NCBI GenBank assembly: GCA_030743005.1
Contig: JASLTG010000013.1
Span: 762 to 64,761, forward strand
Length of the DNA stretch: 64,000 bases
Direction: 5' to 3'
Origin: Acidimicrobiales bacterium
Lineage (GTDB): Bacteria; Actinomycetota; Acidimicrobiia; Acidimicrobiales; Poriferisodalaceae
The notes under the pieces are model-generated. The model saw only the letters and a program-made list of their open reading frames with translations, was not told the origin of the DNA and did no database searches. Below are positions 10,253-60,707 of the stretch, one piece after another (positions within the stretch are counted from its first letter, which is position 1; each line of letters starts with the position of its first letter). Position numbers and translations under genes: made by a program.

Positions 10253-11971
10253 CTAAATCGTGGGTAACCGCGGTCCGGCGATCCTGAGATCTTCTCTTCG
10301 GCGCGTCACACCGGTGCTATCAAGCACAGCGCAGATAGGTAACGCGAACTTTCGCGTCGTTCCCAAAGCATCACGGATTTCAGCAACCGTGACGCCGTCA
10401 GGTTTTTCTTCTAAGAGCTGAGCCACCACGATCGCTGCGCTATCTATGGCAGAAGCAGCGAACAAAACACCATCATTTTGGATCACCGTTCCCCGTTGGA
10501 TTAAACCTCTTATCTCCTCACTTGATAACCCATCAGGTTGAGCAGGTGAAAAAGGGTTTGCTTCAAGTTCATTGACTAATGGGTGATTAACAAAGACATC
10601 TTCTTGATCCAAGGGTCGTGCTTTGCCTTCGAGCACGTCGATACCGTCGAGACTGACCACTACCAGCCGTTCTATTTCGTTTAGCAATGCAACATCTAGA
10701 CCCACTGGCCCGGCTTGATCGATTAAGGAACGAACTTCTTGTTCCGCAGCCGCAACCACCGATGGTGGCGCGACCCAGTCCCCTAAAACGGGTTGTGTGG
10801 CTACTCCAGTAAGGCGCTCCAATTCATCTACTTTGATCCACCCTCGCTCGGCTACTACTCGGTCCACTGAGAGGTCAGGCTGGGCTTCGGAAGCTTTAAC
10901 TATGGGGTCCACATCAAGTACTTGTCCTCCGCCGATAGTTTCGTCACGCCCCGACTCGCGGAGAATGAACCGGTCGCCGGGAAGTAGTGGTAATTCTTCA
11001 GGCAGGAAGACCCTCACCTGCCCCTCTGACCCTGGAGCAAGTGGGTTGGGACCCAGAACCCGGATGCTCACCGGCCATTCCCCAGAACCTATGTACAGAG
11101 AGAAGGCTCCCCGTCGGGAAACTTCGTGATCGAGGTTCGCGAGCACATTGATGTCGGCATCAAATTTTCTTGTTCGATGCCATTGGTCACTTGATATCAG
11201 GGCAACGCCCCTACCCAAGACTTGATGATCGACATTGGCTAGGTTGAGGGCGACCCTGTGACCAGGGTCAATCTTGGTGCGTGGTTCGCCTTGTGTTTGT
11301 ATTGCTCGAATCCGCGCCCGGTTTTCACCGGGTACGAGAACTAATTCGTCGTCGACTCGAAGGCGACCTCCGGTTAATGTGCCAGTGACCACGCTTCCTG
11401 CACCGGTTGCAGCAAATGAACGGTCGATCCACAAACGCGGTCGTTTAGTGTTTGTAGCCGTCGGAGCGTCTTCCGTTAGAGCATCTAAGGCTTCTCTGAG
11501 TTCATCAATGCCAGTGCCATCCAAGCTGTCAACAGCTATGACTGGGGCGCCCTGGAGGAAACTTCCTTCGGTTTTCTCTTCAATATCCATGTGGGCGAGC
11601 TGAGCGAGTTCATCGTCAACCAGACCTATTTGAGTGAGAGCTATCAGCCCGTGACTGATCCCCAATAGTTCGAGAATGCGAAGATGCTCTTCTGATTGAG
11701 GTTTCCACCCTTCGGTTGCTGCAACAACGAAAATGCAGGCATCAACGGCACCCACACCGGCGAGCATGTTCTTAATAAATCTGATGTGTCCAGGAACATC
11801 AATGAAGGACAACTTGCGGCCTGACGACAGGGTCGTGAATGCGAAACCTAAGTCGATAGTTAGACCCCGTTCCTTTTCTTCAGCAAGTCGGTCAGGGTCA
11901 GTTCCTGTGAGCGCGCGTACGAGCGTCGATTTACCGTGATCGACATGCCCTGCTGTCGCAATTACGTGCAT
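10253..11971 (-). CDS. selB: selenocysteine-specific translation elongation factor SelB
   Basis: GTPase N-terminus MHVIATAGHVDHGKSTL, DVPGH, and a long winged-helix C-terminal extension. 572 aa. It starts 3 nt after the selA stop. Confidence 0.9.
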   Translation of the reverse strand: MHVIATAGHVDHGKSTLVRALTGTDPDRLAEEKERGLTIDLGFAFTTLSSGRKLSFIDVPGHIRFIKNMLAGVGAVDACIFVVAATEGWKPQSEEHLRILELLGISHGLIALTQIGLVDDELAQLAHMDIEEKTEGSFLQGAPVIAVDSLDGTGIDELREALDALTEDAPTATNTKRPRLWIDRSFAATGAGSVVTGTLTGGRLRVDDELVLVPGENRARIRAIQTQGEPRTKIDPGHRVALNLANVDHQVLGRGVALISSDQWHRTRKFDADINVLANLDHEVSRRGAFSLYIGSGEWPVSIRVLGPNPLAPGSEGQVRVFLPEELPLLPGDRFILRESGRDETIGGGQVLDVDPIVKASEAQPDLSVDRVVAERGWIKVDELERLTGVATQPVLGDWVAPPSVVAAAEQEVRSLIDQAGPVGLDVALLNEIERLVVVSLDGIDVLEGKARPLDQEDVFVNHPLVNELEANPFSPAQPDGLSSEEIRGLIQRGTVIQNDGVLFAASAIDSAAIVVAQLLEEKPDGVTVAEIRDALGTTRKFALPICAVLDSTGVTRRREDLRIAGPRLPTI

Positions 11972-11974
11972 TGG

Positions 11975-13216
11975 TCAAATAGAGGAGGCAACGGCTTTTG
12001 CCACCAAAGCATCGTCATCGGGGTTAACTGTTCGCAGGTCTAGCACTGTTGAATGATCTCGAACTCTCGCTATCACCGGTACCTCAGCATTACGGAGAGC
12101 CTCGGACACATCTCCCTCTATTTCCACTCCTGCAGATGGGAATTCTTCTCCAGGTAGTGAACCTCCACCCGTCATAGACATTGTGTGGACAGGGCTACCA
12201 ACTCCGAGAGCCTCAGCGCGAGCTTCAAGGTCTGCCACTGGAATTTGAGCCATACGCCAGAAAGGAATTGCGTCCCCTTCGCGACGAAGATAAGCCAAAG
12301 CTGTCTGCTGCAGGGCGTTTAGTACCAACGCCCCGGGTCGGAATGCCCTCATGAGAGGGTGGCTAGCACAAGCTGCTACCAGATCCTTTCGTCCCGCGAT
12401 AACTCCCGCTTGAGGACCCCCAAATAGCTTGTCACATGAAAAAGTTACTAAGTCAGCTCCCGCTTCCAATGTCTGTTTCACAGCAGGTTCATCACGGAGC
12501 CAAGAGGGTTTCCCATCACGTAACCAGTGGCATGCCTCGTCGATAAACCCGGACCCAAGATCTGCAACAACCGGAGGACCAACATCGCTTAACGACCCGA
12601 TCGAAACTTCTTCGGTGAAACCACTGATTTTGTAATTTGATGGATGGACCTTGAGTAATAGAGCAGCGTCATGTAACCGGTGGGCTGCTTGATAGTCAGC
12701 AATACGGGTGCGGTTAGTAGTTCCCACTTCAATCAGTTGAGCGCCGGACTCGGCCATGACATCCGGCACTCGGAAGCCTCCTCCGATTTCAACAAGCTCT
12801 CCTCTGGAAACAGCAACAGCCCGGTTACGCGCGAGAGCTGCAAGTACCAACGTCACAGCGGCAGAACAATTGTTCACTACAAGAGCTGCTTCTGCTCCGC
12901 CTAATTTGCAGATCAAATTGGCTGCATGGTCATTTCGTGAGCCACGGTTGCCCGTGGCCAAATCGAATTCGAGATTTGTTGCTTGTGGTGCCTGCTGGTA
13001 CCCCAATGGCGCCCGACCGAGATTGGTGTGAAGCAATACCCCGGTCGCGTTGATAGCTGGGCCTAAAAGCGCTCGTTTCAATTTGAGCGCTTCTTCTCGA
13101 GCCGAGTCTGGATCGTTGTTGCTGATAGCAGTGCGAGCAGCTTCGACCAGCAGAGGAGATGGGAGATCTATGTCTGACAGAGATCTGGATAACGCATCAA
13201 CTGATGGTGGTCGCAC
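11975..13216 (-). CDS. selA: L-seryl-tRNA(Sec) selenium transferase SelA
   Basis: FSCDKLFGGPQAG contains the PLP-lysine motif, and the protein has the overall SelA layout. It is adjacent to selB. Confidence 0.88.
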   Translation of the reverse strand: MRPPSVDALSRSLSDIDLPSPLLVEAARTAISNNDPDSAREEALKLKRALLGPAINATGVLLHTNLGRAPLGYQQAPQATNLEFDLATGNRGSRNDHAANLICKLGGAEAALVVNNCSAAVTLVLAALARNRAVAVSRGELVEIGGGFRVPDVMAESGAQLIEVGTTNRTRIADYQAAHRLHDAALLLKVHPSNYKISGFTEEVSIGSLSDVGPPVVADLGSGFIDEACHWLRDGKPSWLRDEPAVKQTLEAGADLVTFSCDKLFGGPQAGVIAGRKDLVAACASHPLMRAFRPGALVLNALQQTALAYLRREGDAIPFWRMAQIPVADLEARAEALGVGSPVHTMSMTGGGSLPGEEFPSAGVEIEGDVSEALRNAEVPVIARVRDHSTVLDLRTVNPDDDALVAKAVASSI

Positions 13217-29081: not shown

Positions 29082-29177
29082 TGGCGGAGGTGGACGGGAA
29101 TCGAACCCGCCGGACGGGGATCGCCCGTCCCGCCCGCTTTGAAGGCGGGGGAGCCCACCAGGCGCTCGGACACCTCC
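29082..29177 (-). tRNA. selC: tRNA-Sec (anticodon UCA)
   Basis: The reverse complement is GGAGGTGTCCGAGCGCCTGGTGGGCTCCCCCGCCTTCAAAGCGGGCGGGACGGGCGATCCCCGTCCGGCGGGTTCGATTCCCGTCCACCTCCGCCA. It has anticodon loop CTTCAAA, a 7-bp variable-arm stem (GGACGGG/CCCGTCC) and an extended acceptor stem. It is 96 nt long. Confidence 0.85.
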
Positions 29178-29394
29178 AAGATCAGTCTGCCTCGCGCGCG
29201 GCCCTATTGGAAAGAAAAATTTGAATAAAAGACCGTGATCCGCTCACTAACGTCAATTTCAACTTTGATGGGGCCAAAAAGACTGAAGAAACTGCCGATT
29301 TTTCTTGATTATTGAACTAAACGGGTGTTCAATGACACGCGTGTAATTACGACTACGTCATCTTGACGAGTCGAACCAACCAGGGCGGACACAA

Positions 29395-29682
29395 ATGGCT
29401 TTTGTCGATGATGGCGGTGCTCAAACCGAAGAAAGCAGCTGGTGGGATTACGCCAACTGTTTAGGTGTTGACCCTGATTTGTTTTTCCCAGAGCGTGGAG
29501 CAAGCACCAAAGAAGCTAAAGAAGTATGTAGGGGTTGCGTCGTCCGCGAAGACTGTTTGGAGTACGCATTAAGTCACGGTGAGAAATTTGGAATCTGGGG
29601 CGGCATGAGTGAGCGAGAACGCCGCCGCCTGCGCCGCCAACGCGCACTTGCGCGGCGAGCCGCTGCGGAACGAGCAAGCTAA
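29395..29682 (+). CDS. WhiB-family regulator (WhiB2/WhmD-like)
   Basis: C..CRGCVVREDC cysteines, GEKFGIWGGMSERERRRL, and a basic tail. Confidence 0.85.
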   Translation: MAFVDDGGAQTEESSWWDYANCLGVDPDLFFPERGASTKEAKEVCRGCVVREDCLEYALSHGEKFGIWGGMSERERRRLRRQRALARRAAAERAS

Positions 29683-29739
29683 TACGTCGAGACACTGAGC
29701 TTTCGATTCGAACTTCAGAGCGCTGGTAGTCTGAGGGCT

Positions 29740-29910
29740 GTGAATCTTGGCGGCTCAGAACTCATCATTATCCTGGTCATCGTTTTAGTGCTCTTTGGCG
29801 GAGCAAAGCTCCCCAAACTGGCGCGTTCGCTCGGGCAGGCCCAAAAAGAATTCAAAGACGGTATGGACGACGGCAGTTCAGCCCCAACAGAAGATTCTTC
29901 TGACAGTTAG
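29740..29910 (+). CDS. tatA: twin-arginine translocase subunit TatA/E
   Basis: The 56-aa GTG ORF VNLGGSELIIILVIVLVLFGGAKLPKLARSLGQAQKEFKDG... is a canonical TatA. It is not in the track because it is under 60 aa. Confidence 0.8.
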   Translation: MNLGGSELIIILVIVLVLFGGAKLPKLARSLGQAQKEFKDGMDDGSSAPTEDSSDS

Positions 29911-29925
29911 CCGACCCTTCAGAGA

Positions 29926-30198
29926 TCAAGAAATCTGGACAGAGGTTTCCTGTAACAGAGTTTGCCGGCGAGCTTTCAGGATTCGGCGACGTTGACGCTC
30001 AGACGCTCCGCCCCACACGCCATGTTCCACGCGGTTGACCAAGGCGTATTCCAAGCACGGGGTTTGCGAAACGCAGCCCTCACACAGTTTCTTGGCTCGC
30101 TCAACCCCGACACCGTCACTGGGAAAAAAAATTGATGGATGTTGGTCTGCGCAGTTACCGATATTCATCCAACTTGTGTCGGCGGAAATGTGGCTCAT
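29926..30198 (-). CDS. WhiB-family regulator
   Basis: NCADQHPSIFFP..CEGCVSQTPCLEYAL..GVWGG. 90 aa. Confidence 0.85.
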   Translation of the reverse strand: MSHISADTSWMNIGNCADQHPSIFFPSDGVGVERAKKLCEGCVSQTPCLEYALVNRVEHGVWGGASERQRRRILKARRQTLLQETSVQIS

Positions 30199-30408
30199 GT
30201 CAGCGCTCCGTAGGTTGTGCGAGTGTCATATCTCGCTGTTCGTTACGACTATGACGCCCAACTAGACCAAAAGGTTCCAAATATTTTCGGTTCTCATGAA
30301 ACTTTTATTGTTTGATAACCGGAATAGTGAATCTGAAGGTTCACCGTCACCAATGGTTCCGACTGTTCTCGCCGGTACAGTAATGAACTCGCTGGCGAAG
30401 GAGCATCG

Positions 30409-48421: not shown

Positions 48422-49717
48422 ATGAGCGAAAGACAGCTAATTGACTCGCCGCGCGGTTGGCTCACCGTCATCGCCACCTTTTTCTCTTCCGCGGTGGCGC
48501 TGGGCGCGGTGTACAGCTTCGGTGCGTTCTTCGAATCGATGGCTGACGATTTCGGAACAGGGAAAGGCTCCACTGCCATCATCTTTGGGCTAACGACCTT
48601 CTCGTTTTTCTGGTTGAGTTTGATTACAAGCCGGCTTTCAGACCGGTATGGGCCGCGGCCCGTGCTCGCGGCGGGAGCGGTTGCGTTGTTCGTCGGACTT
48701 TGGGCCACTAGTTATGTCAATTCGATTGGGGCGGGCTACATAACCTTCGGAGTTGGGGCCGGGATTGCTGCGGCCTGTGCTTATATTCCGATGGTCGGCC
48801 ATGTCGGCGGCTGGTTCGAAAAGTCACGCGCCACCGCAGTCGGCATTTCAGTCGCTGGTATTGGTGTCGGCACGCTGGTCATGAACCCATTAGCAGCCAG
48901 ACTCATTGACTTGTACGGGTGGAGAAGCACCTACCGAATATTCGGAGTCGTAGGGTCACTGGTCCTGTTAGTCGGCACTTTGATGATGGCCCGAGCCCCT
49001 GGAGAAGCTGGCGCAGCTCCGTCAAGGATTCGAGAAGCATTTTTCTCTCCGACGTTTCGGAAGCTCTGGTTAGCTGCTCTCTGTTATGCCACTGCCCTGT
49101 TTATTCCCTTCGTTTTTGTGGTTCCCTATGCCAAAGAGCGAGGAATTTCTGCTGTCGCCGCAGCCACCCTGGTCGGGTTACTTGGCGGATCTAGTGTCTT
49201 GTCTCGGATTGGTTTCAGTTGGCTCACTAACCAGTTCGGTATTTTCCGTATCTTTCGATTTGGTTTTGCGCTGTGCCCAATAGCTTTCGGCACCTGGTTG
49301 TTCGCCGGGTCATCTTTTACTGCTCTCGTAATTTTTATGCTCATTATGGGTATTGGATACGGTTCGTTTGTGGCGGTTAGTCCGCTGGTACTTGCCGACT
49401 TATTTGGGGTAGTGGGTCTCGGCTCGCTGATGGGGCTTTTGTACACAGCGTGTGGTTTAGGTGCGTTGCTTGGCCCTCCAATGGCAGGTCGAATGATTGA
49501 TGTCTCTGGCGGCTACACCATGCCGCTGTTGGTTGGCTTGGGACTTGGCCTCATTGCGTTTTTGTCGCTGACATTGTTTTCAACCACGCCATCAGGAAAC
49601 ATTGCTGTCGCCGGTGCAGGTTCACCTGAAGTTCCGACAGTTGAGAGTGGTGTCGCAACGGTGATGGGTGCTTTCGATGAAACCTTGCTAGAGCTTGAAG
49701 ATTGGCTCGACCCTTGA
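48422..49717 (+). CDS. MFS transporter (oxalate/formate-antiporter-like)
   Basis: 12 TM helices and an SRLSDRYGPRP motif-A-like loop. Confidence 0.8.
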   Translation: MSERQLIDSPRGWLTVIATFFSSAVALGAVYSFGAFFESMADDFGTGKGSTAIIFGLTTFSFFWLSLITSRLSDRYGPRPVLAAGAVALFVGLWATSYVNSIGAGYITFGVGAGIAAACAYIPMVGHVGGWFEKSRATAVGISVAGIGVGTLVMNPLAARLIDLYGWRSTYRIFGVVGSLVLLVGTLMMARAPGEAGAAPSRIREAFFSPTFRKLWLAALCYATALFIPFVFVVPYAKERGISAVAAATLVGLLGGSSVLSRIGFSWLTNQFGIFRIFRFGFALCPIAFGTWLFAGSSFTALVIFMLIMGIGYGSFVAVSPLVLADLFGVVGLGSLMGLLYTACGLGALLGPPMAGRMIDVSGGYTMPLLVGLGLGLIAFLSLTLFSTTPSGNIAVAGAGSPEVPTVESGVATVMGAFDETLLELEDWLDP

Positions 49718-49859
49718 GCCATTTAGCGCTGTCATTTGCTCGGCTCTATTGCTCCTGCAAATAGCGAATCCGACATATCAGTTTGATCCCCCGCATCAAT
49801 TAATTATTGATGTACACCTACAAATATGAGAAGTCGGCGAGAAGAAGCCAATAGCTGAC

Positions 49860-51014
49860 ATGGCTATTGCATCAATTACCCACGACACAGGTATTGCATC
49901 AATTACCCACGACACAGGTATTGCATCAATTACTCACGACACAGAATGGCTTCAAGTCACATTTTCTTCCGGAGAGACCAGCAAGTTCTATGTCCAATGG
50001 TTAAGGGACAACATCCCTTCTGGGCGTCATCAAGATCGAGGCCAACGAACCTTTGACATAAACTCACTTCCCCAACACTCACTGAGTGAAGTTACTCACA
50101 CCGGCGATCAAGTCGCTGTCACCTTTGATCTTGACCAGTGCACCCATGTGTTCACTGCAAGTTGGCTTCACTCTCATAGAAACCCGATCACTCTTCGAAC
50201 CAATCCAACCCCAGTTCTTTGGAATGCCGAGGGACAAAACGAACTTTCCTTTGCTGACTATTCGACTCTGAAAAGTTCAAGAAAATCTTTACACTCCTGG
50301 CTTCGCCATATAAGAGATTACGGATATGGGCTACTAGAAAATGTTCCAACTGAACCAGAGACAGTTCTTGAAGTCGTTGAGATGTTTGGTTATGTACGAG
50401 ACACGAATTACGGAAAACTTTTTGAAGTCCGGGCGGAACCAAACCCCTCAAACCTTGCATTCACGAAACTTGGAATCGGGATGCATACCGATAACCCTTA
50501 TCGAGACCCGGTACCAGGATTGCAACTACTGCACTGTCTGGTCAACGAATCAGATGGAGGGGAGACCCAGCTTGTTGATGGCTTCGCAGTAGCAGAAAAG
50601 ATCCGCCAAAAATATCCTGAAGCGTTTTGGTTGCTCTCTACCCTGCCAGTGCGATTTCGATATTTAGACGAAGGATCAGCAGACCTTGAAGCAACGAGCT
50701 CGCTTATTGAAACTAACTCTCACGGAGAAGTAATTGCTTTGCGCTATAACAGTCGCTCGGCACAAGCTTTCACTTTCCCTAGCGAAGTAATGGCAGATTA
50801 TTATGCTGCTTACCGGTTACTTGGGGAACTTTTACACGAACCAGAAGCACGTATCGAATTTCGGTTAACCCCTGGACAGTTAATGATTTTTGATAATCAA
50901 CGTGTGCTTCACGGCCGTTCTTCCTATGAGGAAGGGTCTCGTCATCTTCAAGGCTGTTATGCAGACAAAGATTCTTTGCGATCGTTCATTCGCGTACTTG
51001 AGGAAAAGAAATGA
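49860..51014 (+). CDS. gamma-butyrobetaine-hydroxylase/TmpA/PhnY*-like Fe(II)/2-oxoglutarate dioxygenase
   Basis: N-terminal DUF971-like region (FYVQWLRDN) lacking the BBOX zinc cysteines. The TauD-fold core has GMHTDNPY (HxD) and QRVLHGRS (distal His + Arg). Confidence 0.75.
   Translation: MAIASITHDTGIASITHDTGIASITHDTEWLQVTFSSGETSKFYVQWLRDNIPSGRHQDRGQRTFDINSLPQHSLSEVTHTGDQVAVTFDLDQCTHVFTASWLHSHRNPITLRTNPTPVLWNAEGQNELSFADYSTLKSSRKSLHSWLRHIRDYGYGLLENVPTEPETVLEVVEMFGYVRDTNYGKLFEVRAEPNPSNLAFTKLGIGMHTDNPYRDPVPGLQLLHCLVNESDGGETQLVDGFAVAEKIRQKYPEAFWLLSTLPVRFRYLDEGSADLEATSSLIETNSHGEVIALRYNSRSAQAFTFPSEVMADYYAAYRLLGELLHEPEARIEFRLTPGQLMIFDNQRVLHGRSSYEEGSRHLQGCYADKDSLRSFIRVLEEKK
49866..49943 (+). repeat. 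27-bp direct tandem repeat, 2 full copies plus a 24-nt third copy with one C>T change
   Basis: ATTGCATCAATTACCCACGACACAGGT occurs at 49866 and 49893, and ATTGCATCAATTACTCACGACACA at 49920. The repeat encodes (IASITHDTG)n at the N-terminus of the dioxygenase. Confidence 0.95.
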
Positions 51015-51550
51015 CAGTCATTGAAGAACTGACAGCACTTATGGAAGGGCGAGGGAAACGAAGCTACGGAGAGAACGTGACTATTGCTGAACACGTGTTG
51101 TTGACTGCATCGGTAGCTGAAGAGACTAAAGCTTCAGAGTCTCTGATTGCCGCCTGTCTTTTACATGACGTGGGTCATTGGTTAGATGAACCAGATGACG
51201 ACTTTGGCATACATAGTCATGCTGATACCGGGGGAGTTTGGGTTGCTGAACGGTTTGGGTCAGATGTTTCCGAACCCGTACGCCTTCACGTAGACGCAAA
51301 ACGTTACTTATGCGCGGTTGATCCGGGATATCACAGCTGCTTGTCGTATGCGTCTCAATACACATTGACACAACAGAACGGTCCAATGACGCAAGACGAA
51401 ATCGTTATCTTCCTCTCTAACCCTCATCATGAAGATGCTCTGGCTTTACGTAAGTTTGAAGACATGCATGGGAAAAGAACCAGTGTTCCTATCCCTGAGT
51501 TTGAATATTTCCATCCGCTCTTAGAGAAACTAATTAAGCCATTCAAATAG
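51011..51550 (+). CDS. HD-domain protein of the PhnZ/TmpB type (candidate mixed-valent diiron oxygenase)
   Basis: H28, H52-D53, H68/H70, H93 and D151 form an H..HD..H..H..D pattern. LHVDAKRYL is a motif I associate with phosphonate-operon HD proteins. The ATGA overlap with the dioxygenase stop implies coupling. Confidence 0.72.
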   Translation: MTVIEELTALMEGRGKRSYGENVTIAEHVLLTASVAEETKASESLIAACLLHDVGHWLDEPDDDFGIHSHADTGGVWVAERFGSDVSEPVRLHVDAKRYLCAVDPGYHSCLSYASQYTLTQQNGPMTQDEIVIFLSNPHHEDALALRKFEDMHGKRTSVPIPEFEYFHPLLEKLIKPFK

Positions 51551-51594: not shown

Positions 51595-51671
51595 CGCGGG
51601 GTGGAGCAGTTTGGTAGCTCGTCGGGCTCATAACCCGAAGGCCGTTGGTTCAAATCCAACCCCCGCCACCA
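51595..51671 (+). tRNA. metZ: initiator tRNA-Met (anticodon CAU)
   Basis: CGCGGGGTGGAGCAG start, an unpaired 1:72 position (C/C), three G-C pairs closing the anticodon stem (GGG/CCC), loop CTCATAA and an encoded CCA. Confidence 0.9.
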
Positions 51672-53306: not shown

Positions 53307-54590
53307 ATGGTTCGGTTAAGTGATCTTCACCCCGTTGAGGCGGAGCACCTTGCAGCGCGAGCGCTAGCCATGCCGGCTATAGGTCCGGGTGAATGGGTCA
53401 CTCCGCTGCCACTTGATCAAGCAACGGTCGCGATTGTCTCTACCGCAGGTCTTCACCGGCGCATAGACCCCCCATTCACTGTCGGGTCGCTGGATTATCG
53501 GATCATTCCCGGAGATACCCAATTCGACGACCTCGTGCTCTCCCATATCAGCGCCAATTTTGATCGCAGCGCATTCGGCCAAGACCCCAACATTGTTTTC
53601 CCAATCGACCGCCTCCGCGAATTTGCTTCCTCTGGAGAAATCGGGGGAGTAGCACGTTGGCATTACTCCTTCATGGGAGCGATGCCCGACCCGTCCCAGT
53701 TCGAGAAAGCAGGAGAAGAGATCGGTCGATTGATGGCTCAAGATGGCGTCGATATTGCTTTTTTGGTTCCCATATGACCCGTCTGCACGGGCGCGGTCGG
53801 TGCCTTAGCCAATTACATAGAGCGCGCCGGAGTAGCTACTACTTCCATAAGCCTGATCCGAGAAATGTCCGAAGCAGTTATACCTCCACGAGCGCTATGG
53901 GTGCCCTTTCCTCTCGGCCGACCGCTCGGTGCTGTCGATGATTCAGAATTCCAAAAGAACGTGATGAGAACAGCATTCCGACTTTTGGACACTGCGGTCG
54001 AACCAACCATTGAGGACTATGAACTACAAGCGCCAGGTGAAGGCTCCAACGAAAATTGGTCCTGTCCACTGAATCTAACGCCTGAATCGTCAGGCTCCTT
54101 AACCGAACGATTGTTGGCAGAAGTTGCCCTACTTCGCCCGTGGGCTATCGAAACTCGACGTCAGCGAGGACGAACTCTATTCGGCGCAAGCGGAGCTCGA
54201 GAAGATCAAGTTGACGAGCTGGCTCGAGCCTTCGCCTCGGTGGCCGAAACGGGCGACGTTACCTCTGAACTTGTTGTTGACGACGTTGCTTGGGCGTTTG
54301 AAACGCCGTTGCTTCTGCGTCACATAGCCGATGACCTTCGCACCTTCTATCACGAAGCAATAGCAGCACAACCCGGCGACACTGTGCCTGACCACGACGC
54401 GCTGAACCAATGGATATTTGGTGAAACAGTCCTTGGGGAAGCGCTCTTATCGGTAGCCGATGGATTAACGAAGGCTTCCGATTCGCCCATGGCTCAACTA
54501 GTCAGAGGACTCTTAATTCCCGAAGGTCACTACAGAGGCGGAAGCGCTTTCCCCCAACAGACCAATTTCCCGATAAACCAGGAAACCTAG
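53307..54590 (+). CDS. GrdB/PrdB-family (glycine/sarcosine/betaine/D-proline reductase B-like) selenoprotein, Sec encoded by TGA 53775..53777 (codon 157)
   Basis: Track ORFs 53307..53777 and 53865..54590 share a frame and are separated only by one TGA. The 29 codons in between are open. The U-P-V-C motif is followed by GVATTSISLIRE...PPRALWVPFPLGRPLG. selA, selB and tRNA-Sec are in the same window. Confidence 0.75.
53778..53828 (+). promoter_or_regulatory. candidate bacterial SECIS element
   Basis: Hairpin options lie directly 3' of the UGA. One is CCCGU-CUGC-ACGGG (53778..53791). Another is GGGCGC-GGUC-G(G)UGCCU (53789..53805), whose apical GGUC sits about 20 nt after the UGA. An outer GGCGCG/CGCGCC pairing (53790..53795 with 53823..53828) is also possible. 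Confidence 0.45.
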
Positions 54591-54626: not shown

Positions 54627-55208
54627 GTGAAGCCAAGACACATAGCTAAAGTTTTTGGAGCGATGCTCCTCGCGCCTTTGCGAATTCGCCGATATCCACC
54701 TGAAGCTCCGGATGACTCCGTCCACTACGTGATTCCGACGTTGGCAGCAACTAAAGACCTAGCGGCAACCCAAGCAAACGATCTCCCAGTCGCAAGAACA
54801 TCGCAAGGCCGGTGGACAAAATGGCCGCCTCTGGTGTTGGCCGGGTGCGACGAGCCTCTAGTTGAAGGAGCACCAGACCTGCGAGGTGTCTGGCAGGTGC
54901 ACAAAGGGCCTCTGAAGGGACACATAGAACGTATAGAGCAGGCAGGAGCACGAGTCGTGATCACCGCTGGAGGCATCATCCACGACCTCACGACCGGCGG
55001 CATACCGATGACCGACGAAGGAGTAGGGGGAGCAGAAATAAACGTGGCTGCCCATTACGAGAGTGGACGGTTGAATCTGTACCTCAACAACAAACGACTT
55101 GTGGTTACCCGGTACCGAGACGGAAGCGATCTGGTTTGGCGCTGGGGTCCGTACCGCAATCATCTTCGACGACTAAACGACCCGCATAAGAACAACCCAT
55201 CGCTCTAA
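54627..55208 (+). CDS. hypothetical protein
   Basis: GTG ORF of 193 aa, 37 nt downstream of the selenoprotein gene. I recognise no family. Confidence 0.5.
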   Translation: MKPRHIAKVFGAMLLAPLRIRRYPPEAPDDSVHYVIPTLAATKDLAATQANDLPVARTSQGRWTKWPPLVLAGCDEPLVEGAPDLRGVWQVHKGPLKGHIERIEQAGARVVITAGGIIHDLTTGGIPMTDEGVGGAEINVAAHYESGRLNLYLNNKRLVVTRYRDGSDLVWRWGPYRNHLRRLNDPHKNNPSL

Positions 55209-58293: not shown

Positions 58294-59331
58294 ATGACCG
58301 TACAGACTCCCAATATGTTTGAGCCAAGTGGAATTTCAACATTTCGCCGAGAGTTTGGATCACCGGCGGTTGCGGTGACGGGTGCCGCAGGGTTTATTGG
58401 TTCTCATCTTGTTGAGCGGTTACTCCACTTGGGTTGTTCGGTTATTGGTATCGATGACTTTGATCCGTGGTATGACCCGACCCAGAAGAGACGGAATCTC
58501 CTGGACGTGGTGGGAAATCCTAATTTCGAACTTGTCGATAGCGCCTTGGATCATGCGACGGCGCGCGAAGCGTTCAGTCAGTCGTCAATCGTGTTTCATT
58601 TGGCAGGCCGTCCAGGCGTGCAAGATTCATGGGGTGAGGGGTTTGTCGAAAGCTCCAGGCGAAATGTTGAACTCACTCAACGGGTCTTTGAAACCTCGCT
58701 TGAGTGTGAGGTCTCACGAGTTGTGTACGCCTCCAGTTCATCTATCTATGGATCTGGAGCAACGAGTCTTGAGGTCTCACCTGAACCTCGACCGATTAGT
58801 CCTTACGGTGTGAGCAAGCTGGTAGGTGAACAACTAGCTCACGTGTACCGAAATCAAGGACTGCAAGTAACAAATTTGCGGTATTTCACGGTCTATGGTC
58901 CTCGGCAGCGACCTGACATGGCGATGCATCGAATGTTTGAATCAACAAAGCCCGATGGGCCGGTATTCGTGCGTCGTGGTGATGGGCGCCAACGTCGCGA
59001 GTTCACCTATGTCAGCGATGTGGTTGGTGCCACGGTTGCAGCTGGGTTCGTTACTGCAGCCGCTAATGAGACGTTCGATGTTGGGGGAGGATCCTCAGTG
59101 TCGCTTCAGGACGTAATGGCCATAGTGGAGCAATTATCGGGTACCGCAATGCGAACAGAAAATGTTGCTACACCTGCTGGTGACCCAGCTACGACTGTTG
59201 CGCGCACGAACAAGACCAGCGAAGTGCTGGGTTGGTTACCCGAGGTTGAACTCGTTGAAGGACTTCGACGGCAGTGGGAGTGGCATCGTCAAAGGGTGTT
59301 GTCGGAAGCGCCGCTCTTGGTAGCGGATTGA
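58294..59331 (+). CDS. NAD-dependent nucleotide-sugar epimerase/dehydratase
   Basis: VTGAAGFIGSHLVERL, SSSSIYG, and YGVSKLVGE (YxxxK). Confidence 0.85.
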   Translation: MTVQTPNMFEPSGISTFRREFGSPAVAVTGAAGFIGSHLVERLLHLGCSVIGIDDFDPWYDPTQKRRNLLDVVGNPNFELVDSALDHATAREAFSQSSIVFHLAGRPGVQDSWGEGFVESSRRNVELTQRVFETSLECEVSRVVYASSSSIYGSGATSLEVSPEPRPISPYGVSKLVGEQLAHVYRNQGLQVTNLRYFTVYGPRQRPDMAMHRMFESTKPDGPVFVRRGDGRQRREFTYVSDVVGATVAAGFVTAAANETFDVGGGSSVSLQDVMAIVEQLSGTAMRTENVATPAGDPATTVARTNKTSEVLGWLPEVELVEGLRRQWEWHRQRVLSEAPLLVAD

Positions 59332-60707
59332 GATTCAGATTTTGGACTGACTCGGTTCCAAACCCACCAGCACCCCACGATCAGTGCCGCGCTCCAAATA
59401 GCTGTTAAGAAGTGATCTGCCGCGGACATTACTTGGTGATCAGGTAACAACACGCTCCAAAGTCGGTACCACGGGTTAGTTGTGCGCTCGAAGTCAACTA
59501 TGAGTGTGTGTCTGCCAGTTGAGGTTTCAAAAACGAGCCATAGCCAAGAAATGGTTCCAAGCAGAGAAGTCAGGATCACTGCTTGAAAAGCACGCCGGTT
59601 ATTGTCAACCGCAGCCGCGAGCAAAATGACAACCAAGGGAAGGATCGGAACTATCTGCCGACCAGACCACCACCACCCATGCATAGTCAAGGCAACCCAG
59701 GTAGCGATGCCCCAGCAAACCGCGCACAGACTCATGACGAGTTGCCAATGTTCATCTCTGCGACGGACGGTTCGGGTGATCACTAAAGGAAGCATCAGAT
59801 AGGTAGGAGTCCAAGCAGCGATACCAAATCTGCGATCAACAATTAGACCCAGAAGACGCCTTGTGCGGCCTGCGTAGTTGGGTGAGTTACCAACAACGAC
59901 CCACTCGCTGTTAACGAAATGATCTCCAGTCGCATACACCGTCCAACTCCCGTAGATCCGATGATGAACTACCAGATAGATCACAGCGGACAACACAAGA
60001 GCGAACAACTGAAGGTTCAGCGTCGGATCACGTAACGATTTTTTGTTCCAAATCAAAAAAATAGCGAGCACTGCGGCCAAAGGAACGTATTTGATCCCTA
60101 GCCATGGCAAACAAACCATCATCGCGACTGCGATCCATGACCAAGGTTTGGACGACGTTGAAGTGATCCCTGCGACCCCTAGGACAACGCAAAGCGCAGC
60201 GGGCATCGCTGGATACACCTGAGACCCATAACTTGTGAGGGGAGATGCACAGAAAAGGGCAGTGACAACGCACGCCGCAGTTGAGGTCCCTACGTTGAAT
60301 CGGCGCACTGCTAACCACAAAGTTGCGGCTGCTGTGATACCAGCAATTAGGGAGAGGGCGGCTTTTGCTAATTCCCACCCGCCGAGTTTCATTGGTATCG
60401 CTAGCAGTAACGGCAGGAGGGGGTCGTGAGGGCTGATCTTCAAACCTGCGTCATCGAGTGCGATTGTTTGCGGGTTTAGGTTCACTTCATGAAAATCACG
60501 GAACTGTCCAGCTTCAAGTTCGTCTGAAATGTCTAAGTCGAAATCTTCCCCGAGACTGAGGGCAGTAATGAGGTACTGAGGTTCATCTGCTGTTACCTGA
60601 GCGTTGTAGGTGGCCCGAGCCTGAATGCTGAGTGCAGCAACAAGCGTTACGGACAGCGTCACCACGAACATGAGCCCAGTGAGACGTCCGCTCCTAGGGT
60701 TCATCAT
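59289..60707 (-). CDS. polytopic membrane protein, candidate GT-C-fold glycosyltransferase
   Basis: About 12 TM helices, with an ADEPQYLITALSL..D.DLD motif in the first extracytoplasmic loop resembling the DE/DxD loop of ArnT/PMT-type enzymes. Confidence 0.5.
   Translation of the reverse strand: MMNPRSGRLTGLMFVVTLSVTLVAALSIQARATYNAQVTADEPQYLITALSLGEDFDLDISDELEAGQFRDFHEVNLNPQTIALDDAGLKISPHDPLLPLLLAIPMKLGGWELAKAALSLIAGITAAATLWLAVRRFNVGTSTAACVVTALFCASPLTSYGSQVYPAMPAALCVVLGVAGITSTSSKPWSWIAVAMMVCLPWLGIKYVPLAAVLAIFLIWNKKSLRDPTLNLQLFALVLSAVIYLVVHHRIYGSWTVYATGDHFVNSEWVVVGNSPNYAGRTRRLLGLIVDRRFGIAAWTPTYLMLPLVITRTVRRRDEHWQLVMSLCAVCWGIATWVALTMHGWWWSGRQIVPILPLVVILLAAAVDNNRRAFQAVILTSLLGTISWLWLVFETSTGRHTLIVDFERTTNPWYRLWSVLLPDHQVMSAADHFLTAIWSAALIVGCWWVWNRVSPKSESQSATKSGASDNTL

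What the first reader, a model, noticed from the sequence alone, without database searches (positions are those of the whole stretch)
53307..54590. Unannotated selenoprotein: one in-frame UGA joins two track ORFs into a 427-aa GrdB/PrdB-family protein
ORFs 53307..53777 and 53865..54590 are in the same frame, and the only stop between them is TGA 53775..53777. The 29 codons after it are open and read PVCTGAVGALANYIERAGVATTSISLIRE, continuing into MSEAVIPPRALWVPFPLGRPLG. The resulting U-P-V-C motif sits after a hydrophobic strand (VDIAFLVPI) and is a UxxC redox motif. The N-terminal half (LSDLHPVEAEHL..VAIVSTAGLH..DYRIIPGD..SHISANFDRS..NIVFPIDRL) and the PPRALWVPFPLGRP segment match what I recall of the PF07355 GRDB family. 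Standalone members of that family outside Clostridia have unknown substrates. No grdA/grdC/grdE or prdA partner is visible nearby, so this is not a classical glycine or proline reductase complex. The neighbours are a divergent DUF1326/DUF2182 pair, a 193-aa hypothetical 37 nt downstream, and a convergent (minus-strand) BVMO gene. The biochemical role of this orphan selenoprotein is open.
Basis: partly seen in the sequence, partly recalled or inferred. Interest (0 to 1): 0.85.

Follow-up and report, generated by a model that had tools for sequence, protein, structure and literature searches.

The report
Marine PrdB-like selenoprotein split by UGA
The two adjacent ORFs are one gene for a 427-residue selenocysteine-containing enzyme of the GrdB/PrdB superfamily; it belongs to a marine family catalogued as "PrdB" since 2005, routinely split in two by gene callers, and of unknown function.

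Summary
Window 53307..54590 (+) is one reading frame with a single in-frame TGA (53775-53777), giving ...VPI-U-PVC-TG.... It encodes selenocysteine.

- The same codon is TGA in 82/82 related genomic loci and in 55 of 87 loci of a sister clade; 31 others there have TGT/TGC and one locus is truncated. TAA/TAG never occur.
- Full-length Cys homologs (C-P-x-C) align across both halves.
- A hairpin 12 nt after the UGA is kept by pairing-compatible synonymous choices. It is present in Sec forms (95% and 75%) but not in Cys forms (4%).
- The window also carries selA, selB and tRNA-Sec.

The protein passes Pfam GRDB but is not a true PrdB or GrdB. It scores far below the NCBIfam cut-offs, has a family-specific (window clade and sister clade) C-terminal helical domain of about 190 residues with no Pfam or PDB relative, and has no PrdA/GrdE/GrdA partner in any of about 170 loci.

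It is not a new selenoprotein family. Marine pfam07355 UxxC "PrdB" selenoproteins were listed in the Sargasso Sea (2005) and GOS (2008) surveys.

Most likely it is a stand-alone Sec157/Cys160 reductase. Its substrate is unknown. One new lead: sister-clade genes are adjacent or fused to TauD-family dioxygenases.

The parts
53307..54590 (+). Complete selenoprotein gene: 427 codons (M1...T427) plus TAG stop, with Sec at codon 157
   Evidence: frame. (full-length Cys homologs align colinearly with both halves). (the N-terminal half is exactly 156 aa in 74/82 homologs and starts MVRLSDL).
53775..53777 (+). UGA = selenocysteine codon 157
   Evidence: TGA in 82/82 window-clade loci and 55/87 sister-clade loci. 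TGT/TGC in 31 others; one further locus is truncated at this site; never TAA/TAG. Cys stands at this column in P0288, P0327, P0387 and P0346.
53784..53786 (+). Cys160 codon (TGC), the partner of Sec157 in the U-P-V-C motif
   Evidence: Conserved in all 82 window-clade loci and in every sister-clade locus, in both Sec and Cys forms.
53789..53805 (+). SECIS-like hairpin. The stem pairs columns 15-20 with 26-31, counted from the U of UGA. The loop GGUCG is at 53795-53799 and holds the invariant G22-U23.
   Evidence: RNAalifold consensus. 90% of cells paired against 42-73% when partners are slid. Wobble bases are pairing-compatible in 73/82, 82/82, 80/81 and 79/82 genes, against 30, 55, 56 and 42 expected from same-gene codon usage. 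All five core pairs (columns 16-20 with 26-30) form in 95% and 75% of Sec forms against 4% of Cys forms. Isolated dG is -9.5 kcal/mol.
53400..53990 (+). PrdB/GrdB-like alpha/beta domain (residues 32-228), interrupted by the UGA
   Evidence: TIGR04483 aligns over residues 32-228 against profile 21-219/238, E = 2e-30. PF07355 aligns over residues 36-153. In the AF2 model of Cys homolog P0327, the CxxC lies between strand 149-153 and helix 159-172.
54009..54587 (+). Family-specific C-terminal domain (about residues 235-427), predicted to be all-helical, with no known family
   Evidence: No Pfam hit at E <= 10. No PDB hit by sequence, profile or fold. Many invariant residues. Helices 264-389 in the AF2 model, overall pTM 0.90. 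PrdB and GrdB profiles end at about residue 232.
54063..54065 (+). Cys253 codon (TGT) in the conserved W-x-C-P motif; a possible third redox Cys
   Evidence: W94, C96 and P97 (post-UGA numbering) are invariant in 28 Sec forms. C252-P253 is invariant in 17 Cys forms. It lies in a loop of lower confidence (pLDDT 66-70) between the two domains.
29082..29177 (-). tRNA-Sec (selC), anticodon UCA
   Evidence: ARAGORN. Rfam RF01852, 64.3 bits against a gathering score of 47.
11975..13216 (-). selA (selenocysteine synthase)
   Evidence: PF03841 SelA, E = 1e-97.
10253..11971 (-). selB (Sec-specific elongation factor)
   Evidence: GTP_EFTU plus SelB-wing_3 plus Beta-barrel_SelB.

Best explanation
Window 53307..54590 is a single gene for a 427-residue selenoprotein. 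During translation, SelB with Sec-tRNA(Sec) (selA, selB and selC are all in this window) reads UGA 53775-53777 as selenocysteine. A short hairpin that starts 12 nt downstream, with a G-U-containing apical loop (53789..53805), directs this. The protein has two parts. The first is a GrdB/PrdB-type alpha/beta domain in which Sec157 and Cys160 (U-P-V-C) sit at a strand-to-helix junction. The second is a family-specific helical C-terminal domain. Inferred mechanism: the protein is a stand-alone reductase. The Sec157 selenolate attacks an electrophilic centre of a small-molecule substrate. Cys160 then resolves the adduct into a selenenylsulfide, as proposed for PrdB in D-proline reductase. A cellular dithiol such as thioredoxin, possibly via conserved Cys253, re-reduces the enzyme. 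It is not a D-proline, glycine, sarcosine or betaine reductase subunit. It lacks the pyruvoyl-proenzyme and GrdA partners, and the C-terminal domain probably supplies the substrate pocket instead. It is a member of the abundant marine 'PrdB' UxxC selenoprotein family already catalogued from ocean metagenomes. Shown here: the recoding, family placement, architecture and absence of partners. Inferred: the catalytic cycle, the reductant and the substrate class.
For: Recoding. TGA at the identical codon in 82/82 loci from Acidimicrobiia, Gammaproteobacteria and Dehalococcoidia, while the terminal stops of the same genes are mixed. In the sister clade the codon is TGA in 55 loci and TGT/TGC in 31. 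Full-length Cys homologs read CPxC. Gene callers split the gene everywhere into a 156-aa piece and a piece of about 250 aa. The 29 conserved codons after the UGA contain no start codon.

SECIS. A consensus hairpin is found. Synonymous sites are constrained to pair. The hairpin is present in Sec forms and absent in Cys forms, and pair 16-30 is G-C in one clade and C-G or U-A in the other.

Machinery. tRNA-Sec, selA and selB.

Family and architecture. PF07355 passes its cut-off, and the PrdB profile spans the UGA. The AF2 model of a Cys homolog has pLDDT 88.5 and pTM 0.90, with the CxxC at a strand-to-helix junction and a helical C-terminal domain.

No partner. No neighbour is conserved in the 83 window-clade loci. 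No GrdE/PrdA-type gene appears in any annotated context.

Known family. Sargasso Sea and GOS tables list 'Proline reductase PrdB, pfam07355, UxxC', with 42 and 235 selenoproteins and 110 Cys homologs.
Against: There is no experimental evidence for Sec insertion or for any activity. On the window's single sequence the hairpin is not thermodynamically distinguishable from GC-rich shuffles (z = -0.26 over 66 nt and -1.6 for the isolated hairpin), and Rfam has no matching bacterial SECIS model. selD was not found in the parts of the window I examined. A PrdA-like partner encoded elsewhere in the genome cannot be excluded with these tools. The catalytic cycle is inferred by analogy with PrdB. The structure model is of a 33-40% identical Cys homolog, not of the window protein itself.
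Confidence: 0.8

Rival explanations
1. It is the genuine PrdB subunit of a D-proline reductase (or a GrdB/F/H subunit of a glycine, sarcosine or betaine reductase), and its partner genes lie elsewhere in the genome.
For: The best NCBIfam match is TIGR04483 PrdB (E = 2e-30), with the same UxxC motif. Public pipelines and the selenoproteome surveys call such proteins PrdB.
Against: 106 bits against the 300-bit equivalog cut-off. GrdB, GrdF and GrdH models give 46-65 bits against cut-offs of 602-800. The subfamily model TIGR01918 gives 56 bits against 65.45. The protein is 427 aa, with a C-terminal domain of about 190 aa that is absent from those profiles. No conserved neighbour of any kind in 83 loci, and none resembling PrdA, GrdE, GrdA or GrdC in about 170 loci (and the annotated contexts). 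The hosts are oxic-ocean Acidimicrobiia, Pseudomonadales and SAR202-type Dehalococcoidia, not Stickland fermenters.
Confidence: 0.05
2. The TGA is a real stop. The locus encodes two separate polypeptides (156 aa and about 241-270 aa), or it is a pseudogene or a sequencing error.
For: Every gene caller annotates it this way. The 241-aa ORF has its own ATG at 53865.
Against: The stop would have to be TGA in 138 independent sequences and never TAA or TAG. The 29 codons between the TGA and the first start codon are highly conserved protein sequence, including the invariant Cys160. Cys-codon forms are uninterrupted single proteins. The hairpin co-varies with the presence of TGA.
Confidence: 0.02
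3. The protein is a general thiol/selenol antioxidant or disulfide oxidoreductase (thioredoxin- or peroxiredoxin-like in function), not a substrate-specific reductase.
For: It has a UxxC/CxxC motif at a helix N-terminus, as in thiol oxidoreductases. It has no dedicated partner. It is abundant in sunlit surface waters. GST, GFA, DsbA, MAPEG and DJ-1 genes occur in some sister-clade contexts.
Against: The fold is GrdB/PrdB-type, not thioredoxin-type. The large, highly conserved C-terminal domain with many invariant charged and aromatic residues suggests a specific binding site. Tight operon linkage and fusion with TauD-family dioxygenases in the sister clade point to small-molecule catabolism.
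Confidence: 0.13

Closest known systems
Marine 'proline reductase PrdB' UxxC selenoprotein family of the Sargasso Sea and GOS selenoproteomes (Zhang, Fomenko & Gladyshev 2005, PMC1088965; Zhang & Gladyshev 2008, PMC2398784)
   Same: The pfam07355 domain, the UxxC Sec motif, the marine surface-water origin, Sec forms outnumbering Cys forms, and very high abundance (42 and 235 selenoprotein genes). This matches the thousands of split homologs found here.
   Different: Those surveys filed the sequences under PrdB and gave no architecture, partner analysis or function. I could not compare sequences directly, so identity with that family is inferred from domain, motif and habitat.
PrdB, the 26-kDa selenoprotein subunit of clostridial D-proline reductase (TIGR04483; Kabisch et al. 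1999, as cited in PMC13188914)
   Same: A homologous alpha/beta domain aligned over about 200 residues, including the Sec position, and a U-x-x-C motif.
   Different: Only 106 bits against a 300-bit cut-off. An extra C-terminal domain of about 190 aa. No PrdA pyruvoyl proprotein and no PrdC or other prd genes nearby. Aerobic marine hosts.
GrdB/GrdF/GrdH, the substrate-specific selenoprotein B of glycine, sarcosine and betaine reductases (PF07355, TIGR01917/TIGR01918)
   Same: The same Pfam family, with Sec at the equivalent position in the C-terminal part of the GRDB profile.
   Different: GrdB-type proteins carry their extra sequence N-terminal to the PrdB-like core, whereas here the extra domain is C-terminal. 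The UxxCxxC motif is replaced by U-P-V-C-T-G-A, with no second Cys at +6. No grdA, grdC or grdE genes. Scores are 46-65 bits against cut-offs of 602-800.
E. coli fdhF-type bacterial SECIS element
   Same: A hairpin immediately downstream of the UGA within the coding sequence, with a small apical loop containing G (here G22-U23), the shared bacterial SECIS feature described in PMC1088965. From my memory of fdhF, the spacing and the GGUC-like loop are similar.
   Different: The stem is short (5-7 bp) and built entirely from Gly-Ala-Val-Gly-Ala codons. No Rfam model matches it. SelB binding is untested.

Membership tests
Bacterial selenoprotein gene (UGA = Sec) | In-frame UGA conserved at one codon among orthologs, with coding conservation continuing downstream | tested here: met
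   TGA in 82/82 plus 55 further loci. The downstream P-x-C-[TS]-... sequence is conserved. Terminal stops of the same genes are mixed.
Bacterial selenoprotein gene (UGA = Sec) | Homologs with Cys aligned to the UGA | tested here: met
   CPSC, CPNC, CPHC and CPLC in full-length homologs. 31 TGT/TGC loci.
Bacterial selenoprotein gene (UGA = Sec) | SECIS stem-loop just downstream of the UGA, with G in a small apical loop | tested here: met
   Comparative evidence. Single-sequence thermodynamics is not significant on its own.
Bacterial selenoprotein gene (UGA = Sec) | Sec-decoding machinery in the genome (selA, selB, selC, selD) | tested here: met
   selC and selA and selB are in the window. selD was not seen in the parts of the window I scanned; the rest of the genome is not available.
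Bacterial selenoprotein gene (UGA = Sec) | Selenium demonstrably incorporated into the full-length product | not testable with these tools
   Needs 75Se labelling or mass spectrometry.
Pfam PF07355 GRDB (superfamily level) | Score at or above the gathering threshold | tested here: met
   38 bits against 22, over residues 36-153. Homolog halves carry a precomputed PF07355 assignment.
TIGR04483 D-proline reductase PrdB (equivalog) | Score at or above the 300-bit equivalog cut-off | tested here: not met
   106 bits.
TIGR04483 D-proline reductase PrdB (equivalog) | Partnered with a PrdA pyruvoyl proprotein (prd operon) | tested here: not met
   No conserved neighbour in 83 loci. No such gene in the annotated contexts or among the sister-clade neighbour clusters. 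Genome-wide absence could not be tested.
TIGR04483 D-proline reductase PrdB (equivalog) | Single-domain protein of about 240 aa | tested here: not met
   427 aa. The profile ends at residue 228, followed by a conserved extra domain.
TIGR01918 glycine/betaine/sarcosine/D-proline reductase selenoprotein B subfamily | Score at or above 65.45 bits | tested here: not met
   56.1 bits.
GrdB glycine reductase selenoprotein B (TIGR01917) | Equivalog score, the UxxCxxC motif, and grdA/grdC/grdE neighbours | tested here: not met
   46 bits against 602. The motif is U-P-V-C-T-G-A. No such neighbours.
Marine 'PrdB' UxxC selenoprotein family (Sargasso Sea / GOS) | pfam07355 domain, UxxC Sec motif, marine metagenome origin, and Cys homologs present | tested here: met
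   Searches compared with the tables quoted. Direct sequence comparison with the published entries was not possible.

The most novel reading that the evidence does not exclude
The abundant marine 'PrdB' selenoproteins would be a distinct enzyme class. They would be partner-less Sec/Cys reductases of the GrdB/PrdB fold whose own C-terminal domain replaces the pyruvoyl subunit. They would work together with TauD/TfdA-type Fe(II)/2-oxoglutarate dioxygenases, and in some lineages with BVMO/FMO monooxygenases and GSTs, in the aerobic catabolism of X-CH2-R compounds such as onium or sulfonate osmolytes or thioether conjugates. Their role would be reductive C-heteroatom cleavage in oxic seawater. The basis is the same-strand adjacency or fusion of sister-clade genes with TauD (39/87 loci), plus the TauD/GBBH-like and BVMO genes flanking the window gene.
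Probability: 0.2. Interest if true: 0.7.

Novelty: new member of a known kind. Interest (0 to 1): 0.4.

Why it matters
The practical value is in annotation. This gene and thousands of its relatives are recorded in public databases as a truncated 156-aa 'PrdB' or 'selenoprotein B family protein' plus a separate 'hypothetical protein' of about 250 aa. That hides one of the most abundant selenoproteins of the surface ocean and mislabels it as an anaerobic Stickland enzyme.

The analysis shows the family is architecturally distinct: it has a conserved extra C-terminal domain and no partner subunits. It defines the SECIS element of the family, with a natural Sec-versus-Cys control. It also gives the first concrete functional lead, operon linkage and fusion with TauD-family dioxygenases in a sister clade. 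That makes a question open since 2005, what 'PrdB' does in aerobic marine bacteria, experimentally approachable.

Finding a selenoprotein of this family in a marine actinobacterium is not surprising to specialists.

Tried and rejected
- Single-sequence folding of 53775-53840 gave an MFE no better than shuffles (z = -0.26), dominated by a window-specific long-range GGCGCG/CGCGCC pairing that is not conserved in homologs. I rejected it in favour of the conserved local hairpin.
- Rfam at gathering thresholds found only the three tRNAs and no SECIS family.
I therefore modelled a Cys homolog with the window halves as alignment rows.
- PDB searches by sequence, by profile and by Foldseek found nothing significant (best Foldseek E = 7e-3, TM <= 0.26). 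The weak B12-binding and pyruvate-carboxylase hits were treated as noise.
- Pfam on the C-terminal domain alone at E <= 10 found nothing.
- I looked for a conserved partner in the window clade and found none. DUF1326, PpoB2, the 193-aa ORF and the BVMO are conserved only among the window's closest Acidimicrobiia relatives. Sulfatases occur in about 10/83 loci at variable positions, and TauD in at most 4/83 depending on the query set.
- A second same-frame ORF pair split by one TGA (10253..13216, minus strand) looked like another selenoprotein but is simply adjacent selA and selB.
- The region beside tRNA-Sec with no long ORF holds small WhiB-like and TatA-like genes and nothing unusual.
- Literature searches for a described 'PrdB-like' or 'GrdB-like' marine subfamily, or for GRDB/TauD/BVMO/GST clusters, found nothing relevant.
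Full report
**1. Observation**

The sequence is as described. ORFs 53307..53777 and 53865..54590 are in one frame. The only stop between them is TGA at 53775-53777. Reading through gives 156 + 1 + 270 = 427 residues, with ...DGVDIAFLVPI-U-PVCTGAVGALANYIERAGVATTSISLIRE-MSEAVIPPRALWVPFPLGRPLG.... No ATG, GTG or TTG lies between the TGA and 53865, so the 29 intervening codons cannot be translated by a separate initiation.

**2. It is one gene**

A homology search with the read-through protein returned 458 proteins. All of the best 120 are 237-291 aa and cover only the C-terminal 55-63% of the query. Many begin 'M/L-CTGAVGAL', the codon just after the UGA-Pro. A search with the N-terminal 156 aa returned 4049 proteins. 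Nearly all of the best 120 are exactly 156 aa, and some are publicly named 'selenoprotein B family protein' or 'PrdB'. An exhaustive HMMER search of 1.84 billion representatives with the post-UGA segment showed the same truncation pattern, plus a few full-length proteins.

I pulled 80 loci from species-representative genomes, out of 344 species with a relative. They come from Acidimicrobiia, several Gammaproteobacteria clades and Dehalococcoidia. Two further loci came from encoding-contig look-ups. In 82/82 loci the codon before P-[VIL]-C-[TS]-G is TGA, and the homologous N-terminal half continues upstream in frame; it is exactly 156 codons in 74/82. The real terminal stops of the same genes are TAG 34, TGA 31 and TAA 15, so exclusive TGA use is not a matter of stop-codon preference.

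**3. Sec/Cys pair**

Full-length homologs of 405-430 aa place Cys at the UGA column: VPV-C-PSC-T, VPV-C-PNC-S, VPT-C-PHC-T and VPV-C-PLC-T. They align colinearly with both window halves, and their Cys fills the one-column gap between the halves. In a second, more divergent clade sampled from metagenomes and encoding contigs (87 loci), the codon is TGA in 55 loci, TGT in 16 and TGC in 15; the remaining locus is truncated at this site. Neighbouring sequences are otherwise nearly identical, for example VFLTPV-U-PNCTRAV against VFITPV-C-PNCTRAT.

**4. SECIS**

The consensus fold of 79 distinct downstream segments is a 6-bp hairpin. It pairs columns 15-20 with 26-31, counted from the U of UGA, which is window 53789..53805. 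The 5-nt loop contains the invariant G22-U23. 90% of cells are paired, against 42-73% when the partners are slid.

The arms lie in Gly-Ala-Val-Gly-Ala codons, so I tested the wobble positions against each gene's own codon usage. Pairing-compatible bases occur in 73/82, 82/82, 80/81 and 79/82 genes. The expected numbers are 30, 55, 56 and 42. The effect also holds in the 36 genes with GC below 58%.

There is a natural control. All five core pairs (columns 16-20 with 26-30) form in 95% of window-clade Sec forms, 75% of sister-clade Sec forms and 4% of sister-clade Cys forms. The median MFE of nt 8-45 is -12.6 kcal/mol for Sec forms and -5.5 for Cys forms. Pair 16-30 is G-C in one clade and C-G or U-A in the other, and there is a CGCUC/GAGCG compensatory variant.

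On the window sequence alone the hairpin has a dG of -9.5 kcal/mol, which is not significant against shuffles. Rfam has no matching model. The SECIS claim therefore rests on comparative evidence.

**5. Machinery**

The window itself carries three Sec-decoding genes. They are tRNA-Sec (29082..29177, minus strand), selA (11975..13216, minus strand; PF03841, E = 1e-97) and selB (10253..11971, minus strand). TGA also acts as an ordinary stop in this organism, for example at the end of selA, so genome-wide reassignment of the codon is excluded.

**6. What the protein is**

- Pfam GRDB passes: 38 bits against a cut-off of 22, over residues 36-153.
- The PrdB equivalog TIGR04483 aligns over residues 32-228, across the UGA, but scores only 106 bits against 300.
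- TIGR01918 scores 56 against 65.45, and the GrdB, GrdF and GrdH models score 46-65 against 602-800.
- Residues from about 235 to 427 have no Pfam family even at E <= 10. They are nevertheless strongly conserved (W-x-C-P, R-x-R-G-R-T-x-x-G, DDL-x-x-F/W-Y-x-E-A; PEG in the window clade only).
- An AlphaFold2 model of Cys homolog P0327, built on an alignment that includes both window halves, is confident (pLDDT 88.5, pTM 0.90). It has an alpha/beta domain with the CxxC between strand 149-153 and helix 159-172, followed by a helical domain.
- There is no relative in the PDB by sequence, profile or fold.

**7. Context**

In the window clade (83 loci, about 900 kb) nothing is conserved next to the gene. 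The best real neighbour cluster occurs in 18 loci at variable positions. DUF1326, PpoB2, the 193-aa ORF and the BVMO are restricted to the window's closest relatives. FMO/BVMO-like genes occur within 6 kb in 15/83 loci, representing about five lineages. No annotated context contains a PrdA-, GrdE-, GrdA- or GrdC-type gene.

The sister clade is different. A TauD/TfdA-family dioxygenase (PF02668, E = 3e-58) lies directly downstream on the same strand, with gaps of 3-28 nt or overlapping, or just upstream. The main TauD cluster is present in 25 of the 58 loci that have at least 900 nt downstream; about 15 of those have it directly downstream. A TauD-family gene occurs in 39/87 loci overall. Three protein clusters are GRDB-TauD fusions of 708-724 aa. 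Two loci show the order TetR > FMO-like > GST > GRDB-like > TauD.

The window has a distant TauD/GBBH-like gene 2.3 kb upstream (49860..51014) and a convergent BVMO downstream. Across the window clade, however, TauD is rare (at most 4/83 loci). The link is therefore a lead, not a finding, for this protein.

**8. Mechanism**

Shown: UGA recoding by a hairpin-dependent Sec system, a U-P-x-C redox pair at a strand-to-helix junction, and a stand-alone two-domain architecture.

Inferred from the chemistry proposed for PrdB in D-proline reductase (established knowledge; Kabisch et al. 1999, cited): the Sec157 selenolate attacks an electrophilic atom of the substrate. Cys160 resolves the adduct into a selenenylsulfide. 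A dithiol re-reduces the enzyme. The invariant Cys253, in a flexible inter-domain loop, may relay electrons. Because no pyruvoyl partner exists, the substrate must be intrinsically activated, and the C-terminal domain probably forms the binding site.

**9. Novelty**

Marine 'Proline reductase PrdB' selenoproteins (pfam07355, UxxC) were already listed as the third most abundant family in the Sargasso Sea (42 genes) and among the top families in GOS (235 Sec forms and 110 Cys forms). Reviews from 2022 and 2026 still describe only the clostridial function. No paper in the library treats the marine form separately.

The window gene is thus a new member of a known selenoprotein family. The added value here is:

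- the demonstration that the family is not PrdB in the strict sense;
- the definition of its SECIS element, with a Sec-versus-Cys control;
- the family-specific C-terminal domain (shared by the window clade and the sister clade);
- the TauD link.

Interest is moderate.

Noticed in passing
window 10253..13216 (-): selB (10253..11971) and selA (11975..13216) are adjacent and in the same frame, separated by selA's TGA stop. At first they looked like a second UGA-interrupted gene. Together with selC they place three of the four Sec-decoding genes in this window.
   Followed up: yes
window 29082..30300: tRNA-Sec (29082..29177, minus strand) is followed by a stretch with no long ORF. It holds two WhiB-like small ORFs (29395..29682 +, 29926..30198 -) and a TatA-like ORF (29740..29910 +).
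   Followed up: partly
window 48422..51550 (+): An MFS transporter (48422..49717), a TauD-family dioxygenase with a gamma-butyrobetaine-hydroxylase-like N-terminal domain (49860..51014) and an HD-domain protein (51011..51550) lie 2-5 kb upstream of the selenoprotein gene. TauD-family genes are operon partners or fusion partners of the sister clade of this selenoprotein.
   Followed up: partly
P0486, P0488, P0495; loci L083 and L084, 7001..9127: Natural fusion proteins of 708-724 aa in alphaproteobacterial MAGs, with an N-terminal GRDB-like Cys form (including the C-terminal helical domain) and a C-terminal TauD/TfdA dioxygenase. A sulfatase gene lies divergently upstream and GST genes are nearby.
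   Followed up: partly
L086 3434..8136; L089 3325..8143; L060 and L067 at about +1.7 kb: A gene order TetR > FMO/BVMO-like (about 600 aa) > GST > GRDB-like > TauD recurs in Cys-form loci. A 57%-identical ortholog of that monooxygenase sits directly downstream of Sec-form genes in two Acidimicrobiales loci.
   Followed up: partly
window 54063..54065 (Cys253), motif W-S-C-P: A third cysteine is invariant in 28 window-clade Sec forms and in the 17 aligned Cys forms; one separately retrieved Cys form (P0387) lacks it. It lies in a loop of lower model confidence between the two domains and may act as a relay or resolving thiol.
   Followed up: no
window 54627..55208 (+) and 59289..60707 (-): A 193-aa ORF starting 36 nt after the selenoprotein gene's stop codon (conserved only in 9 close relatives) and a 472-aa ORF. 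Neither has any Pfam match.
   Followed up: partly
window 51595..51671 (+): A tRNA-Met gene sits between the HD-domain gene and the PpoB2/DUF1326 pair. It marks a break between the TauD cluster and the selenoprotein gene, so the two are unlikely to be co-transcribed.
   Followed up: no
Public protein databases: Sec forms of this family are systematically stored as two proteins, a 156-aa 'PrdB' or 'selenoprotein B family protein' and a 'hypothetical protein' of about 240-290 aa. No full-length Sec-form entry appeared among the best hits.
   Followed up: yes
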